Of a stretch of DNA of 3,779 bases, positions 1 to 3,779 are shown in pieces. The position numbers are program-made. This DNA comes from a virus (Duplodnaviria; Heunggongvirae; Uroviricota; Caudoviricetes). The stretch lies in the IMG/VR virus record IMGVR_UViG_2534682234_000019; one strand, 5' to 3'. Position 1 is the stretch's first letter, and each line of letters starts with the position of its first letter.

Positions 1-3000
1 GATGGTTTATGCAGTGACGGCAACGGCCTTGAGCTGAAATGCCCGTTTACCTCCCGGGATTTCATGAAGTTCCGGCTCGGTGGTTTCGAGGCCATAAAAT
101 CGGCTTACATGGCCCAGGTGCAGTACAGCATGTGGGTGACACGAAAAGATGCCTGGTACTTTGCCAACTATGACCCGCGCATGAAGCGTGAAGGCCTGCA
201 TTATGTCGTGATTGAGCGGAATGAAAAGTACATGGCGAGTTTTGACGAGATGGTGCCGGAGTTCATCGAAAAAATGGACGAGGCACTGGCTGAAATTGGT
301 TTTGTATATGGGGAGCAATGGTAATGAAGCATCCTCACGATAATATCCGGGTAGGCACGATCACTTTCGTCTACTCCGTTACAAAGCGAGGCTGGGTATT
401 TCCCGGCCTTTCTGTTATCCGAAATCCACTGAAAGCACAGCGGCTGGCTGAAGAGATAAATAATAAACGAGGGGCTGTATGCACAAAGCATCTCCTGTTG
501 AATTAAGAACGAGTATCGGGATGGCACATAGCCTCGCTCAAATTGGAGTCAGGTTTGTGCCAATACCAGTAGAAACAGACGAAGAATTTCATACGTTAGC
601 CACATCCCTTTCACAAAAGCTGGAAATGATGGCGGCGAAAGCAGAAGCAAACGAGAGAGACCCGGCATGACAACAACAGAATGCATTTTTCTGGCAGCAG
701 GCTTCATATTCTGTGTGCTTATGCTTGCCGACATGGGACTTGTTCAATGACACCTCAGCAGGAAAACGCCCTTCGCAGCATTGCCCGTCAGGCTAATTCT
801 GAAATCAAAAAAGCCAGACAGCAGTTTCCGGATAAAAACGTCGATGACATTTGCCGTAGCGTACTGAAGAAGCACCGCGAAACGGTAACGCTAATGGGAT
901 TCACACCGACTCATTTAAGTCTGGCGATCGGCATGTTAAACGGCGTCTTTAAGGAGCGATGAACATGAAAAGCAAAATCATCAGGGAGCTACAGGCTCCT
1001 TTTTTATTGTTCGCATTCACCCTCAAGCGTATTAACCAACAATTCAGGGATTAATGGAAGATGGCAGACATCATTGATTCAGCATCAGAAATTGAAGAAT
1101 TACAGCGCAATACAGCAATAAAAATGCGTCGCCTGAACTACCAGACTGTATCCGCAACTCATTGTTGTGAGTGTGGCGATCCGATAGATGAACGAAGACG
1201 CCTGGCAGTTCAGGGTTGTCGGACTTGTGCAAGTTGCCAGGAGGATCTGGAGCTTATCAGTAAACAGAGAGGTTCGAAGTGAGCGAAATTAATTATCAGG
1301 CACTGCGTGAAAAGGCAGAGAAAGCAACTAAAGGAAGCTACATCGTAGGGCATACATCTGTTAACCAGCACGGCAATTTAACAGGAGTTTTTGTTTGCCA
1401 AAAATGGAAAGGAGAACCCGGTGGTGTGATTGCGGAATGTCATGTTAACTGCCTGGTTGAAACAGATGTTCAGGCTTATGCAAACGCTGAATTTATTGCT
1501 GCCTTTAATCCAAATGTTGCGCTGGCGCTTCTGGATGAACGGGAAAGAAACCAGCAATACATCAAACGCCGCGACCAGGAGAACGAGGAGATTGCGCTTA
1601 CGGTTGGGAAGCTGCGTGTTGAGCTTGAAGCAGCAAAATCAAAACTCAACGAGCAGCGTGAATATTACGAGGGAGTAATCGCGGATGGAAGTAAGCGCAT
1701 AGCAGAACTGGAAAAACAATGCGCCGAATGGGAGCGAAAAGCATTAAGCAACTTTGAAGAGTGTGCTGCGATGGCTGAACGTATCGAAGAGATGCAGACA
1801 AAATCTGCACCAGATTCGTTTGGCATCATCGGTGAAAATATTCGAACACAGGACAATCGAATAACGTCAGATCCCATGTTTTGTGTGTATCAAAAGCGCG
1901 AAATCGCTGTTGATGCTGATTATGACCATGACCGGATTGTCTGGGTTGACGAAGATGGCAATGAAGCCAATAAACGCCATAGTCGTCGTCTCGAGCTACT
2001 TCATGAAAACTTTCGAGAGCCACCAGAAAAATGGCGGCGCGTTGCTGTGAAAGATATTGATGAATTCGTTACCTGCTGTTTCACCGAACAGGGTTGTAAA
2101 GACTACCTGGCAGTCAATGGTCACAATCTTCGCTTGCCATTTATATATGTAAAAAGCGGTTTCAGGAACGCTGAATATATCGGCATAAGAAACTGGCTTG
2201 CTGGCATTCGCATCAAAGGAGAGTGAGATGAACGGACAAATATCAATTATTCGCCCTGGCGCTTGTGACGAAGACAATAAGGCTGATTATCCGCCTTGCG
2301 ATGGGTAGAACAATAACTGCTCTCATTACTCCAGAAAATCTCGCATTAGCATTAACCGGAAAGTCAGACCTGCCAGTAGAGCTAAAGCTGCGAAATGTTG
2401 AGATTAAGGTGAAATAGCTATGACCACTTTTACCAATAGCAAACTAACAGACGAATACGTTTCAAATGCAACGTTGATTCGGCTCATTCTGTGGGCTGAC
2501 CAGCACAATAGCCATTATGTTGTAGCGGCTCTGCGCGAGCTACAGGAGCGCCGCAAGGCTGATAGTGCAGAACCTGGAAGCCAAACTTACAAGTTGCCAG
2601 TTAATACACCTTGCCAAGATGCGCCAGCCCATATCTGGCTGCAAACGGCTGGAGTATGGCCAGAAGATGGCGAGTTAAGCGAATTAACGTGGTGCAGCCA
2701 CAATCAACACCATGATGACACGCTATATGTTCGAGCTGACCTTGTGAATGGCAACTATCCGGCAACTCCGGATGGTTGGATAAGCTGTAGTGAGCGAATG
2801 CCGGAGAAATACGATTTCGATATCTGGGTATTCTCTCCATCCAGAGGTGTTCTTGACGGGCTACAGTGGGATGGCTCGATGTTTACTGATGATGAATATC
2901 AGTTCGTTATTCATGACGCCACGCATTGGATGAGAAAAGTATATCCAGCAGCACCGCAGCAGGATGGTGAATGATGCCGCCAGTTAAAGTTGTGATTATC

Positions 3001-3779
3001 ACTTTGGTGATGATAGTGATTGCGAGAATCATGTCTGGTGAAATTGTGTGGATATGGTAATGGCTAAGGCAGCAGCAGAGCGCAACTAACAATCCTCGCA
3101 CTCGCGGGGATTTCTTTTATCTGAACTCGCTACGGCGAGTTTTGTTTTATGGAGACAAGAAATGTCAGATTTGGCTATGAAGGTTTTGAAATGGCAATCA
3201 ACTGGCGATGTCGGCATCAGTAGCGCAACTCTTGCCTCAATCGCATGTGGCCTGAAAAAGAATATCTATGGTCATGGCTTCGGTGCTCCACATGACGCAG
3301 CCGATTTCCGACGATGCGTTGCACTTGTTGAGCAGATTCCAGAAATCAGAGATTCATTCGACAAGGTTGCAAAGCGCGTTCCGGCATTCAAAGGAATCCT
3401 CAACGAATGGGATTCTCTCGTTGCTCTGTTGAAGTCTGAAATGAAGATACACGGAAACAAAGCACCAGAGACTTACAGAAGAATTAGCGAGTTACGCAAG
3501 GACTAACCACAGCCTCACACTCGATGAGGCCTGTACATATCTGATAGAGCCGCTATATGGCGGTTTCTTTTTGCCTGGAGAATTAAGATGACCGATACCA
3601 GCCTGATTCCTGAGAAAGAAGTGATGAACAAGCTCGGTGTTTCATCACGTCAGACAATCTGGAACTATACCAAACGGCACGGATTTCCGAAGCCAGTCAG
3701 AACCCACCCCAAATCATACCTTCGTGAAGCTGTTGAGGGGTGGATTCTTAACGGTGGCGTTAATCAGAAATGCTCCTGA

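What the first reader, a model, noticed from the sequence alone, without database searches (positions are those of the whole stretch)
2420..3060. DUF551-like protein translationally coupled to a 29-aa hydrophobic peptide at the operon end
The 184-aa gene ends in an ATGA overlap with an ORF encoding MMPPVKVVIITLVMIVIARIMSGEIVWIW, an almost purely Val/Ile/Leu helix with a basic N-terminal flank and aromatic C-terminus, which is typical of a single-pass membrane peptide. It is followed directly by tandem terminators. A soluble protein paired with a tiny membrane peptide resembles toxin/modulator or exclusion-type two-gene modules. The function of DUF551 proteins is unknown to me.
Basis: partly seen in the sequence, partly recalled or inferred. 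Interest (0 to 1): 0.6.

Follow-up and report, generated by a model that had tools for sequence, protein, structure and literature searches.

The report
Unannotated tiny membrane-protein gene after DUF551
A 29-codon reading frame overlapping the end of a prophage DUF551 gene is most likely a real but uncharacterised single-helix membrane micro-protein gene, one of several interchangeable tiny membrane-peptide genes that sit behind DUF551 genes in lambda-like and Shiga-toxin phages and that reference annotations skip.

Summary
A DUF551 gene (2420-2974) ends in an ATGA overlap with a 29-codon ORF (2971-3060). The ORF has a good Shine-Dalgarno site and a very hydrophobic product, and two terminator hairpins follow it.

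The window is the exo-xis end of the pL operon of an E. coli lambdoid (Stx2c-type) prophage.

The exact peptide occurs only as one nearly identical DNA block: 221 of 5426 E. coli genomes and 10 of 50,697 phage records. Its own substitution pattern therefore cannot prove that it codes for protein.

Indirect evidence favours a real gene:
- The start is coupled to DUF551, and the stop overlaps (TAATG) a downstream gene that survives here as a 9-codon stub.
- The frame is intact in nearly all copies.
- Chance hydrophobicity is about 5e-4.
- Four other families of 27-46 aa single-helix ORFs occupy the same coupled slot after DUF551: 16 of 54 DUF551 gene ends against 0 of 219 other gene ends.
- One of those families, "WPEAF", shows modest signs of purifying selection.

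The pairing with DUF551 is enriched but not obligatory. No evidence supports a toxin-antitoxin or exclusion module. The terminators are the lambda block that follows ea8.5, not a true operon end.

Function is unknown. This is a new member of a known kind, of moderate interest.

The parts
2420..2974 (+). DUF551-domain gene (184 aa). A variable N-terminal part is followed by the DUF551 domain at residues 119-172. The last codons (..QQDGE*) carry the SD for the next ORF.
   Evidence: ORF list. Pfam PF04448 E 9.9e-10. PGAP names homologues 'DUF551 domain-containing protein'.
2961..2970 (+). Shine-Dalgarno-like AGGATGGTGA inside the end of the DUF551 gene, 1-10 nt upstream of the two ATGs.
   Evidence: Anti-SD duplex -7.1 and -7.8 kcal/mol. 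Other DUF551 alleles carry ..CAGGAGGTGAAxTGATG at the same place and use it for annotated downstream genes.
2971..3060 (+). 29-codon ORF for a single-helix hydrophobic micro-protein, MMPPVKVVIITLVMIVIARIMSGEIVWIW. Its start is in an ATGA overlap with the DUF551 stop. Its stop (3058-3060) is in a TAATG overlap with the next start.
   Evidence: Intact in 69 of 71 loci: both ATGs are lost in L020 and the N-terminus is replaced in L010. The exact peptide is deposited as 'hypothetical protein ECpv15279_2749', BBC51094.1. RefSeq/PGAP and phage GenBank records do not annotate it.
3060..3089 (+). 9-codon stub (MAKAAAERN*). It is the 5' remnant of a 112-aa phrog_536 'transcriptional regulator' gene that follows the micro-ORF intact in other prophages. 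Homology breaks after GAGCGCAA (3085).
   Evidence: (L011, L016, L021, L047, L051).
3087..3152 (+). Tandem intrinsic terminators: stems at 3091-3112 and 3123-3142, each with a T-tract. The conserved mosaic block is shared with lambda 29283-29360, directly after ea8.5.
   Evidence: Some part of window 2200-3600 matches 3303 of 5426 E. coli genomes. How many of those carry the terminator block itself was not counted.
3162..3506 (+). Next gene on the same strand (114 aa, phrog_1229, unknown function). It shows that the transcription unit continues past the terminators.

Best explanation
The 2971-3060 ORF is a genuine gene for a 29-residue single-pass inner-membrane micro-protein. Some pipelines call it, but reference annotation omits it. 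It belongs to the early, pL-driven exo-xis accessory region of an E. coli lambdoid (Stx2c-type) prophage.

Ribosomes finishing the DUF551 gene re-initiate at the overlapping AUG(s), using the SD embedded in the last DUF551 codons. The peptide would therefore be made only when the DUF551 gene is translated, that is, after infection or induction and not in the repressed lysogen.

It is one of at least five unrelated small-TM-peptide cassettes that lambdoid phages place in the same coupled slot behind DUF551-domain genes.

Shown here: the anatomy, the coupling signals, the hydrophobic helix, the recurrent slot, and modest signs of purifying selection in one sister family.

Inferred: that it is translated and inserts in the inner membrane. 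There it would act early in lytic development, either by binding or modulating a host membrane protein or by serving as a membrane partner for the DUF551 protein.
For: - ATGA overlap plus an SD duplex of -7.1/-7.8 kcal/mol, as strong as or stronger than those of the window's annotated genes.
- The stop overlaps the start (TAATG) of a phrog_536 gene that is intact in five related loci, so the ORF exactly fills the space between two genes.
- An open frame of this hydrophobicity arises in only 5e-4 of composition-matched shuffles.
- The frame is open in 69 of 71 loci, with no internal stop or frameshift. A 1-nt deletion at the start (L013) keeps the frame through an upstream ATG. A recombinant (L010) keeps an in-frame ATG that overlaps the last codons of the upstream abc2 gene.
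- All five synonymous changes fall in this frame, and none is synonymous in the other two frames. pN/pS is 0.25 over TM-core codons 5-15.
- Same slot, other families: 16 of 54 DUF551 gene ends against 0 of 219 other ORF ends, Fisher 7e-13. These are the 27-28 aa 'WPEAF' peptides, a 40-aa phrog_5525 peptide, a 33-aa peptide and a 46-aa peptide.
- The WPEAF family has 54 distinct DNA sequences. pN/pS is 0.42 in frame against 0.66 and 1.77 out of frame.
- A second double-coupled 27-aa TM ORF in this window (667-750) has pN/pS 0.15 and an identical peptide in lambda. Such gap-filling micro-ORFs in this region can therefore be real genes.
- Independent gene callers already call the peptide; it is seen on at least 1000 contigs.
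Against: - There is no direct evidence of translation. EHEC Ribo-seq supplements do not list it, although pL genes are silent in uninduced lysogens.
- All copies are one recent DNA block: 97.8% mean pairwise identity, and the degenerate-codon searches found only the same DNA.
- Variant density in the ORF (0.286 per nt) equals that of the adjoining non-coding terminator region (0.282 per nt).
- Overall pN/pS is 0.80, with 9 interior non-synonymous against 5 synonymous changes. That does not differ significantly from neutrality.
- The C-terminal residues 25-26 vary freely (IV, IG, VW).
- One locus lost both ATGs (L020).
- R19 and E24 lie inside the predicted helix.
- There is no family in Pfam, NCBIfam, PHROGs or PADLOC.
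Confidence: 0.6

Rival explanations
1. The ORF is a non-functional chance frame, or at most a translated proto-gene, in a spacer that hitch-hikes with the widely exchanged terminator block. It looks conserved only because the block spread recently. Any sequence placed behind the strong SD/ATGA at the end of DUF551 would look coupled.
For: - Variant density is the same as in the flanking non-coding DNA.
- pN/pS is 0.80 overall.
- No diverged homologue turned up in phages, viral contigs or metagenomes.
- PGAP never calls it.
- L020 lacks both ATGs.
- Soluble genes of many kinds use the same DUF551 end and SD.
Against: - Chance of an open and equally hydrophobic frame is 5e-4.
- Both ends overlap neighbouring genes.
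- Other TM micro-ORFs recur at the same slot, against 0 of 219 at other gene ends.
- Synonymous changes occur only in this frame.
- There are no internal stops or frameshifts in about 70 loci.
Confidence: 0.25
2. DUF551 protein and TM peptide form a dedicated two-component module, either toxin plus modulator or a membrane-tethered DUF551 complex that may work in exclusion or host takeover. The peptide's function would depend on the DUF551 partner.
For: - Strong enrichment of coupled TM micro-ORFs behind DUF551 ends, with five unrelated peptide families.
- The upstream neighbour of the 29-aa ORF ends in a DUF551 domain even where PGAP names the protein after an Ead/Ea22 or dATP/dGTP-pyrophosphohydrolase domain.
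- Translational coupling favours co-production.
Against: - About 70% of DUF551 ends lack such a peptide.
- 46 of 113 WPEAF peptides do not follow a DUF551 gene; about 35 of them follow a 933W p77-like protein.
- Copies of the 29-aa ORF persist behind abc2 or a deleted DUF551.
- There is no PADLOC or TA-family hit.
- The position in the CI-repressed pL operon, with no + strand promoter-like site, argues against an exclusion function in lysogens.
- An apparent DUF551-peptide fusion cluster turned out not to contain the peptide.
Confidence: 0.15
3. It is a type I toxin-antitoxin-like locus: a small hydrophobic toxin controlled by an antisense RNA transcribed from the minus strand.
For: - The peptide's size and hydrophobicity resemble Ibs, TisB, ZorO or Hok.
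- One promoter-like site lies on the minus strand inside the ORF (3037..3010, 9 of 12 matches).
- hokW/sokW lies next to the WPEAF ORF in 933W.
Against: - That single promoter-like site is fewer than the 2.1 expected by chance.
- No minus-strand terminator was found there.
- The minus-strand RNA fold is no better than shuffles, z -0.8.
- There is no Rfam hit at E<=1.
- The ORF has no promoter or 5' UTR of its own; it is coupled to the upstream gene.
Confidence: 0.03
4. The segment works as RNA: a structured 3' region of the DUF551 mRNA that gates re-initiation or stabilises the transcript ahead of the terminators. The reading frame would be incidental.
For: The + strand RNA of 2955-3065 folds at -31.9 kcal/mol, z -2.4, and none of 200 shuffles is as stable. 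The SD and AUGs lie in a small hairpin loop.
Against: - There is no covariation. Of the natural variants in the 8-bp hairpin (2995-3002 paired with 3007-3014), two improve pairs and three break pairs (sequence reading).
- No Rfam family matches.
- A structure around the start is equally expected for a tightly coupled gene.
Confidence: 0.05

Closest known systems
'WPEAF' 27-28 aa peptides (M[STN]WPEAF..G....A.A....YSICRWG) behind DUF551 or p77-like genes in 933W, BP-4795, Min27, ArgO145 and many E. coli and Shigella prophages
   Same: They occupy the same slot in the exo-xis region and show the same ATGA coupling. They have the same size, a single TM helix and a C-terminal Trp. RefSeq records likewise leave them unannotated.
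   Different: There is no convincing sequence similarity to the 29-aa peptide. The family is diverse (54 DNA variants) and shows modest signs of purifying selection, with pN/pS 0.42 in frame against 0.66 and 1.77 out of frame. The 29-aa ORF has almost no diversity.
Lambda exo-xis region genes (orf60a, orf63, orf61, orf73, ea22, ea8.5, orf55) and the small peptides reported there by ribosome profiling (Liu et al. 2013, as cited in PMC8614690)
   Same: Same genomic region, same pL early expression, tight gene packing and a non-essential accessory character (PMC10834534, PMC8614690).
   Different: The characterised exo-xis proteins are soluble: a TraR-like protein, homeodomain-like proteins and the Ea22 tetramer. 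Neither exo-xis paper consulted mentions a membrane peptide in its text.
Type I toxins (HokW, Ibs, TisB, ZorO, ShoB)
   Same: They are hydrophobic single-helix peptides of 18-50 residues that are often encoded in prophages.
   Different: Type I toxins have their own promoter, a structured 5' UTR and a cognate antisense RNA. None of these was found here.
Small bacterial membrane regulators (e.g. AcrZ, MgrB, MgtS, PmrR, KdpF) - functional analogy recalled from my own knowledge
   Same: They are single-pass peptides of about 30-50 residues that act by binding a larger membrane protein.
   Different: There is no homology, no known target and no experimental data for the phage peptide.
Lambda terminator block between ea8.5 and orf55 (I recall it as tL3; the name was not verified here)
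   Same: Window 3087-3150 is about 97% identical to lambda 29283-29360.
   Different: In lambda the block directly follows the ea8.5 stop. Here it is joined inside the 5' stub of a phrog_536 gene downstream of the micro-ORF.

Membership tests
DUF551 (Pfam PF04448), for the upstream protein | Profile match above the Pfam gathering score. | tested here: met
   39.6 bits against a cut-off of 22, E 9.9e-10, residues 119-172. The conserved GNxPxTPDGWISCSERMP ... THWM motifs are present.
Type I toxin-antitoxin | Small hydrophobic toxin ORF. | tested here: met
   29 aa with a best 19-residue Kyte-Doolittle window of 2.28.
Type I toxin-antitoxin | Cognate antisense or overlapping sRNA with its own promoter and terminator. 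| tested here: not met
   One weak minus-strand promoter-like site against 2.1 expected, and no minus-strand terminator nearby. No Rfam hit. Minus-strand fold z -0.8.
Type I toxin-antitoxin | Independent toxin promoter and a long regulatory 5' UTR. | tested here: not met
   There is no + strand promoter-like site in 2200-3779. The start overlaps the upstream stop.
Type I toxin-antitoxin / toxin-modulator pair | Toxicity of the peptide and neutralisation by the partner. | not testable with these tools
   This needs expression assays.
Prophage superinfection-exclusion / defence genes | Homology to a known defence or exclusion protein. | tested here: not met
   No PADLOC hit for DUF551, the peptide or the neighbours at E<=0.1, apart from chance coiled-coil hits for Ead.
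Prophage superinfection-exclusion / defence genes | Expression from the repressed prophage (own promoter, 'moron' structure). | tested here: inconclusive
   The consensus scan found no + strand promoter and the gene is embedded in the pL operon. A consensus scan cannot exclude a weak or non-sigma70 promoter.
Bona fide protein-coding small gene | Start codon with an SD at proper spacing, and an open frame kept across copies. | tested here: met
Bona fide protein-coding small gene | Purifying selection on the encoded protein (pN/pS well below 1 in frame only). | tested here: inconclusive
   pN/pS is 0.80 overall and 0.25 in the TM core, from only 14-16 haplotypes. Conservation equals that of the flanking non-coding DNA.
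Bona fide protein-coding small gene | Evidence of translation (Ribo-seq, MS or tagging). | not testable with these tools
   Two EHEC translatome papers do not list it in their supplements. Both used uninduced cultures.
Known small-protein families (Pfam, NCBIfam, PHROGs) | Profile match for the 29-aa peptide. | tested here: not met
   No families matched.
Lambda ea8.5-distal tandem terminator block | Sequence identity to lambda 29283-29360, with two GC-rich hairpins and T-tracts. | tested here: met

The most novel reading that the evidence does not exclude
DUF551 domains and single-pass TM micro-peptides form a recurrent two-part module in temperate enterobacterial phages. Unrelated peptides (the 29-aa ORF, WPEAF, phrog_5525, a 33-aa and a 46-aa peptide) would have been recruited repeatedly as co-translated membrane partners that tether or activate the soluble DUF551 protein at the inner membrane early after induction. 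This would give the orphan DUF551 family its first functional context. It would also add a membrane arm to the exo-xis region's known effects on the lysis-lysogeny decision and on host physiology.
Probability: 0.15. Interest if true: 0.65.

Novelty: new member of a known kind. Interest (0 to 1): 0.45.

Why it matters
[quoted passage not shown] Its gene list has been treated as a handful of small soluble proteins.

This work shows that reference annotations leave gaps there which are filled by tightly coupled reading frames for 27-29 aa membrane peptides:
- the 29-aa ORF studied here;
- the widespread WPEAF family, found in 933W and BP-4795;
- a 27-aa ORF present in lambda itself.

If these peptides are made, phenotypes assigned to deletions or over-expression of neighbouring genes (DUF551, orf61, orf63) may partly belong to them. 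DUF551 proteins would also gain a testable partner. Practically, the result argues for adding these micro-ORFs to phage annotation.

Tried and rejected
- **Rfam.** Scanning the whole window at E<=1 found nothing.
- **tblastn and degenerate-codon scans.** These searched phages, viral contigs and metagenomes for diverged coding homologues. They returned only the same DNA block. The metagenome pattern was too loose: about 18 of 120 hits were genuine.
- **Citrobacter DUF551 relatives (P0016, P0017).** Their encoding contigs are not on record, so the downstream DNA of the nearest diverged alleles could not be read.
- **DUF551 fold.** The AlphaFold model has pLDDT 65. Foldseek against the PDB gave nothing below E 1, and the PDB sequence search gave nothing. 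No functional clue came from this.
- **PADLOC, Pfam, NCBIfam and PHROGs** gave no hit for the peptides.
- **A 'Rosetta-stone' lead.** The WPEAF peptide clusters with 121-aa DUF551 proteins, but those sequences do not contain the peptide. I rejected it as a clustering artefact.
- **EHEC translatome supplements** contain no entry.
- **Liu et al. 2013 lambda ribosome profiling** is not held in the library.
- **Antisense promoter / type I TA idea.** The single promoter-like site is no more than chance would give.
- **RNA-structure idea.** The + strand fold has z -2.4 but no covariation.
- **First association count.** My regex for DUF551 ends missed several. I redid the count with an HMM.
- **First pN/pS values.** They included codons that the search patterns had fixed. 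I recomputed them without those codons.
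Full report
**Context.** The window is the distal part of the leftward early (pL) operon of an E. coli lambdoid prophage.
- The gene order is: exo 3' end, orf60a-like (DUF1317), orf63-like (DUF1382), orf61-like, TraR/orf73-like, Ead/Ea22, small ORFs, DUF551, a 114-aa gene, then an AlpA/Xis-like gene.
- In related E. coli O157 genomes the same arrangement ends in an integrase next to sbcB.
- Positions 2960-3165 are 100% identical to Stx2-converting phage 1717.
- This is the 'exo-xis region' of the lambda and Stx-phage literature. It is an early, non-essential region that influences lysogenisation and induction (PMC10834534, PMC8614690).

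**Observation.**
- The DUF551 gene (2420-2974; Pfam PF04448, E 9.9e-10) ends in TGA 2972-2974.
- That stop overlaps ATG 2971-2973 of a 29-codon ORF running to TAA 3058-3060.
- An SD-like AGGAUGGUGA precedes it. The anti-SD duplex is -7.1 to -7.8 kcal/mol, as strong as or stronger than any annotated gene in the window.
- The product, MMPPVKVVIITLVMIVIARIMSGEIVWIW, has a best 19-residue hydropathy window of 2.28.
- Only 5e-4 of 100,000 shuffles of the ORF's own bases are both open and as hydrophobic.
- Two terminator-like hairpins follow, at 3091-3112 and 3123-3142.

**Where else it occurs.**
- The micro-ORF DNA is present in 221 of 5426 complete E. coli genomes, always on the chromosome, and in 10 of 50,697 phage records. 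These are the Stx2 phages 1717, 2851, F349, WGPS4 and WGPS8, plus E212 and EC.P3, all at 93% peptide identity or more.
- A back-translated pattern that allows any synonymous codon for VIARIMSGE found 41 viral contigs and about 18 metagenome contigs. All but one carry the identical DNA core.
- The peptide is thus confined to one recently spread DNA block. No diverged coding homologue exists in the collections searched.
- RefSeq/PGAP and the phage GenBank records leave it unannotated.
- The exact peptide has nevertheless been deposited by other pipelines as 'hypothetical protein' (BBC51094.1 and others) and was called on at least 1000 contigs.

**Anatomy of the block.**
- Upstream, the ORF nearly always follows the last codons of a DUF551 domain (..HWMPLPEPPEQDGE*). 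This holds even where PGAP names the protein after an N-terminal Ead/Ea22 or dATP/dGTP-pyrophosphohydrolase domain.
- There are two exceptions:
  - a deletion next to an inverted AAA-ATPase remnant (L006);
  - a recombinant in which the P22-type abc2 gene replaces the first 11 or so codons, yet an in-frame ATG overlapping the end of abc2 remains (L010).
- Downstream, the ORF's stop overlaps (TAATG) an ATG. In five loci that ATG opens a 112-aa phrog_536 'transcriptional regulator' gene.
- In the window only nine codons of that gene remain (3060-3089). The sequence then switches to the tandem terminator block.
- That block is about 97% identical to lambda 29283-29360, immediately after ea8.5. 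Some part of window 2200-3600 matches 3303 of 5426 E. coli genomes; I did not count how many carry the terminator block itself.
- The ancestral order was therefore DUF551 -ATGA- micro-ORF -TAATG- gene X, a frame that exactly fills the space between two genes.
- The terminators are a mosaic junction, not an operon end. A 114-aa gene and the xis-like gene follow on the same strand. In lambda, N-modified pL transcription reads through this site (established lambda biology).

**Is the ORF under protein-level constraint?**
- Seventy-one loci give 16 haplotypes.
- Five distinct changes are synonymous (V7 twice, I9, V13, I20) and fifteen are not. Six of the fifteen touch the two ATGs. The other nine are P3L, P4S, I10T, T11N, M14I, I25V, V26L, V26G and W29stop.
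- With the pattern-fixed codons excluded, pN/pS is 0.80 overall and 0.25 for TM-core codons 5-15. No change is synonymous in either alternative frame.
- No internal stop or frameshift occurs.
- A 1-nt deletion at the start (L013) keeps the frame via an upstream ATG. Eight loci lost the first ATG but keep the second. One (L020) lost both.
- Against this, variant density in the ORF (0.286 per nt) equals that of the adjacent non-coding stub and terminators (0.282 per nt). Both segments are about 96-98% identical between loci, whereas the DUF551 coding sequence upstream is highly diverged.
- The block is too young for its own substitutions to settle the question. They lean towards frame-specific constraint but are not significant.

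- In 79 viral loci recovered with the DUF551 protein, the gene is followed by:
  - a 27-28 aa TM peptide family (M[STN]WPEAF..G....A.A....YSICRWG) in 25 loci, nearly always with the start overlapping the stop;
  - the present 29-aa ORF in 5 loci;
  - a 40-aa TM peptide (phrog_5525) in 2 loci;
  - a 92-aa protein with an N-terminal TM helix (phrog_667) in about 9 loci;
  - soluble proteins or nothing in the rest.
- In 18 loci from one genome per species, 4 show such a neighbour. Two of these are new TM peptides, of 33 and 46 aa.
- I classified gene ends with a DUF551 HMM. 16 of 54 non-redundant DUF551 ends are followed by a coupled 20-50 aa TM ORF, against 0 of 219 other + strand ORFs of at least 80 codons in the same loci (Fisher 7e-13).
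- Caveats on that figure:
  - the loci are phylogenetically related;
  - the comparison set may contain spurious ORFs;
  - it leaves out short genes, and in this very window a coupled TM micro-ORF follows the 63-aa orf63-like gene.
- The reverse test is weaker. Of 113 WPEAF ORFs found by pattern, irrespective of context, 67 follow DUF551 and about 35 follow a 933W p77-like protein.
- The WPEAF family has 54 distinct DNA sequences. pN/pS is 0.42 in frame against 0.66 and 1.77 out of frame, pattern codons excluded. This is modest, not decisive, evidence that it is a real gene.
- The WPEAF ORF is unannotated in RefSeq 933W, BP-4795 and ArgO145 and is absent from PHROGs, NCBIfam and Pfam.

**Interpretation.**
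- The most economical reading is that 2971-3060 is a genuine small membrane-protein gene. It would be translated by termination-reinitiation coupling from DUF551, and it is one of several interchangeable TM-peptide cassettes at this slot.
- The enrichment behind DUF551 is real. It is compatible with two explanations:
  - a functional partnership, such as a membrane partner or anchor;
  - the conserved DUF551 3' end (..CCGCCGCAGGAGGTGAAxTGATG) being a recombination linker with a built-in SD that serves any downstream cassette.
- Because the pairing is neither obligatory nor exclusive, I rate the dedicated two-gene module as a minority possibility.
- Nothing supports a type I toxin-antitoxin. 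There is no antisense promoter beyond chance, no Rfam hit and no independent promoter or 5' UTR.
- Nothing supports a defence or exclusion system either. PADLOC is negative, and the position inside the repressed pL operon fits poorly with a function needed in lysogens.
- The + strand RNA folds better than shuffles (z -2.4). Natural variants do not covary with the hairpins, so this is most simply the structure expected around a coupled start.
- DUF551 itself remains without a fold assignment (pLDDT 65; no PDB match).
- Function is unknown. The mechanism I commit to is early, coupled synthesis of a single-pass inner-membrane peptide that acts on a host membrane target or on the DUF551 protein. 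This is inference by analogy with other small membrane proteins.

**Novelty and verdict.**
- Small phage-encoded membrane peptides are a known kind, and some pipelines already predict this one. It has not been characterised and has no family in Pfam, NCBIfam, PHROGs or PADLOC.
- The recurrent TM-peptide slot behind DUF551 is not mentioned in the exo-xis literature I could read.
- I rate it a new member of a known kind, of moderate interest (0.45).
- Confidence is 0.6 that it is a real translated membrane micro-protein. The probability that DUF551 and TM peptide form a functional module is about 0.15.

Noticed in passing
window 667-750 (+): A second hydrophobic micro-ORF that reference annotation skips: 27 aa, MTTTECIFLAAGFIFCVLMLADMGLVQ.
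- Its ATG overlaps the stop of the orf63-like DUF1382 gene (ATGA). Its stop overlaps the ATG (747) of the orf61-like gene (ATGA). PGAP leaves a 76-nt gap there.
- The same peptide is encoded in lambda between orf63 and orf61, with several synonymous differences. There it overlaps, out of frame, the annotated N-terminal extension of lambda orf61.
- 27 distinct intact DNA versions in 126 loci give 113 identical peptides. pN/pS is 0.15 in frame against 2.8 and 1.3 out of frame, pattern codons excluded.
- It is deposited as 'hypothetical protein' by some pipelines.
   Followed up: partly
L390 (phage 933W NC_000924.1 58832-58909), L392 (BP-4795), L391 (ArgO145); about 93 phage records: An unannotated family of 27-28 aa single-TM peptides (M[STN]WPEAF...YSICRWG). 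They are coupled to the preceding gene, either DUF551 or a 933W p77-like protein. In 933W the ORF lies directly upstream of hokW/sokW. pN/pS is 0.42 in frame. The family is not in PHROGs, Pfam or NCBIfam.
   Followed up: partly
window 3060-3089 (+): A 9-codon stub (MAKAAAERN*) of a 112-aa phrog_536 'transcriptional regulator' gene that follows the micro-ORF intact in L011, L016, L021, L047 and L051. It marks a recombination junction with the lambda-type terminator block after GAGCGCAA.
   Followed up: yes
window 959-1054 (+): A 31-aa ORF (MNMKSKIIRELQAPFLLFAFTLKRINQQFRD) whose ATG overlaps the orf61-like stop (ATGA). It is annotated only in a phage 434 record (CPT_434B_38). It probably corresponds to the 31-aa lambda peptide 'orf2313' from ribosome profiling mentioned in PMC8614690. 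I could not verify this because the primary paper is not held.
   Followed up: no
L394 (lambda 30839-31024) vs window 747-962: Lambda's annotated orf61 differs from the Stx-phage and window version by a 1-nt length difference in an A-run. Lambda Orf61 is therefore truncated and its annotated start lies upstream in another frame. The conserved start appears to be MTPQQENAL.. (window 747). This agrees with the remark in PMC8614690 that lambda Orf61 looks truncated.
   Followed up: partly
window 2228-2417 (+): Between Ead/Ea22 and DUF551 there are two short ORFs, 2228-2308 and 2265-2417. In strain 472, PGAP annotates the homologous stretch as a frameshifted pseudogene (L001 3011-3189). I did not examine this further.
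   Followed up: no
clusters: The 90%-identity cluster that holds the 27-aa WPEAF peptide also lists 121-aa DUF551 proteins that do not contain the peptide. This is a clustering artefact that could mislead automated 'fusion' inference.
   Followed up: yes
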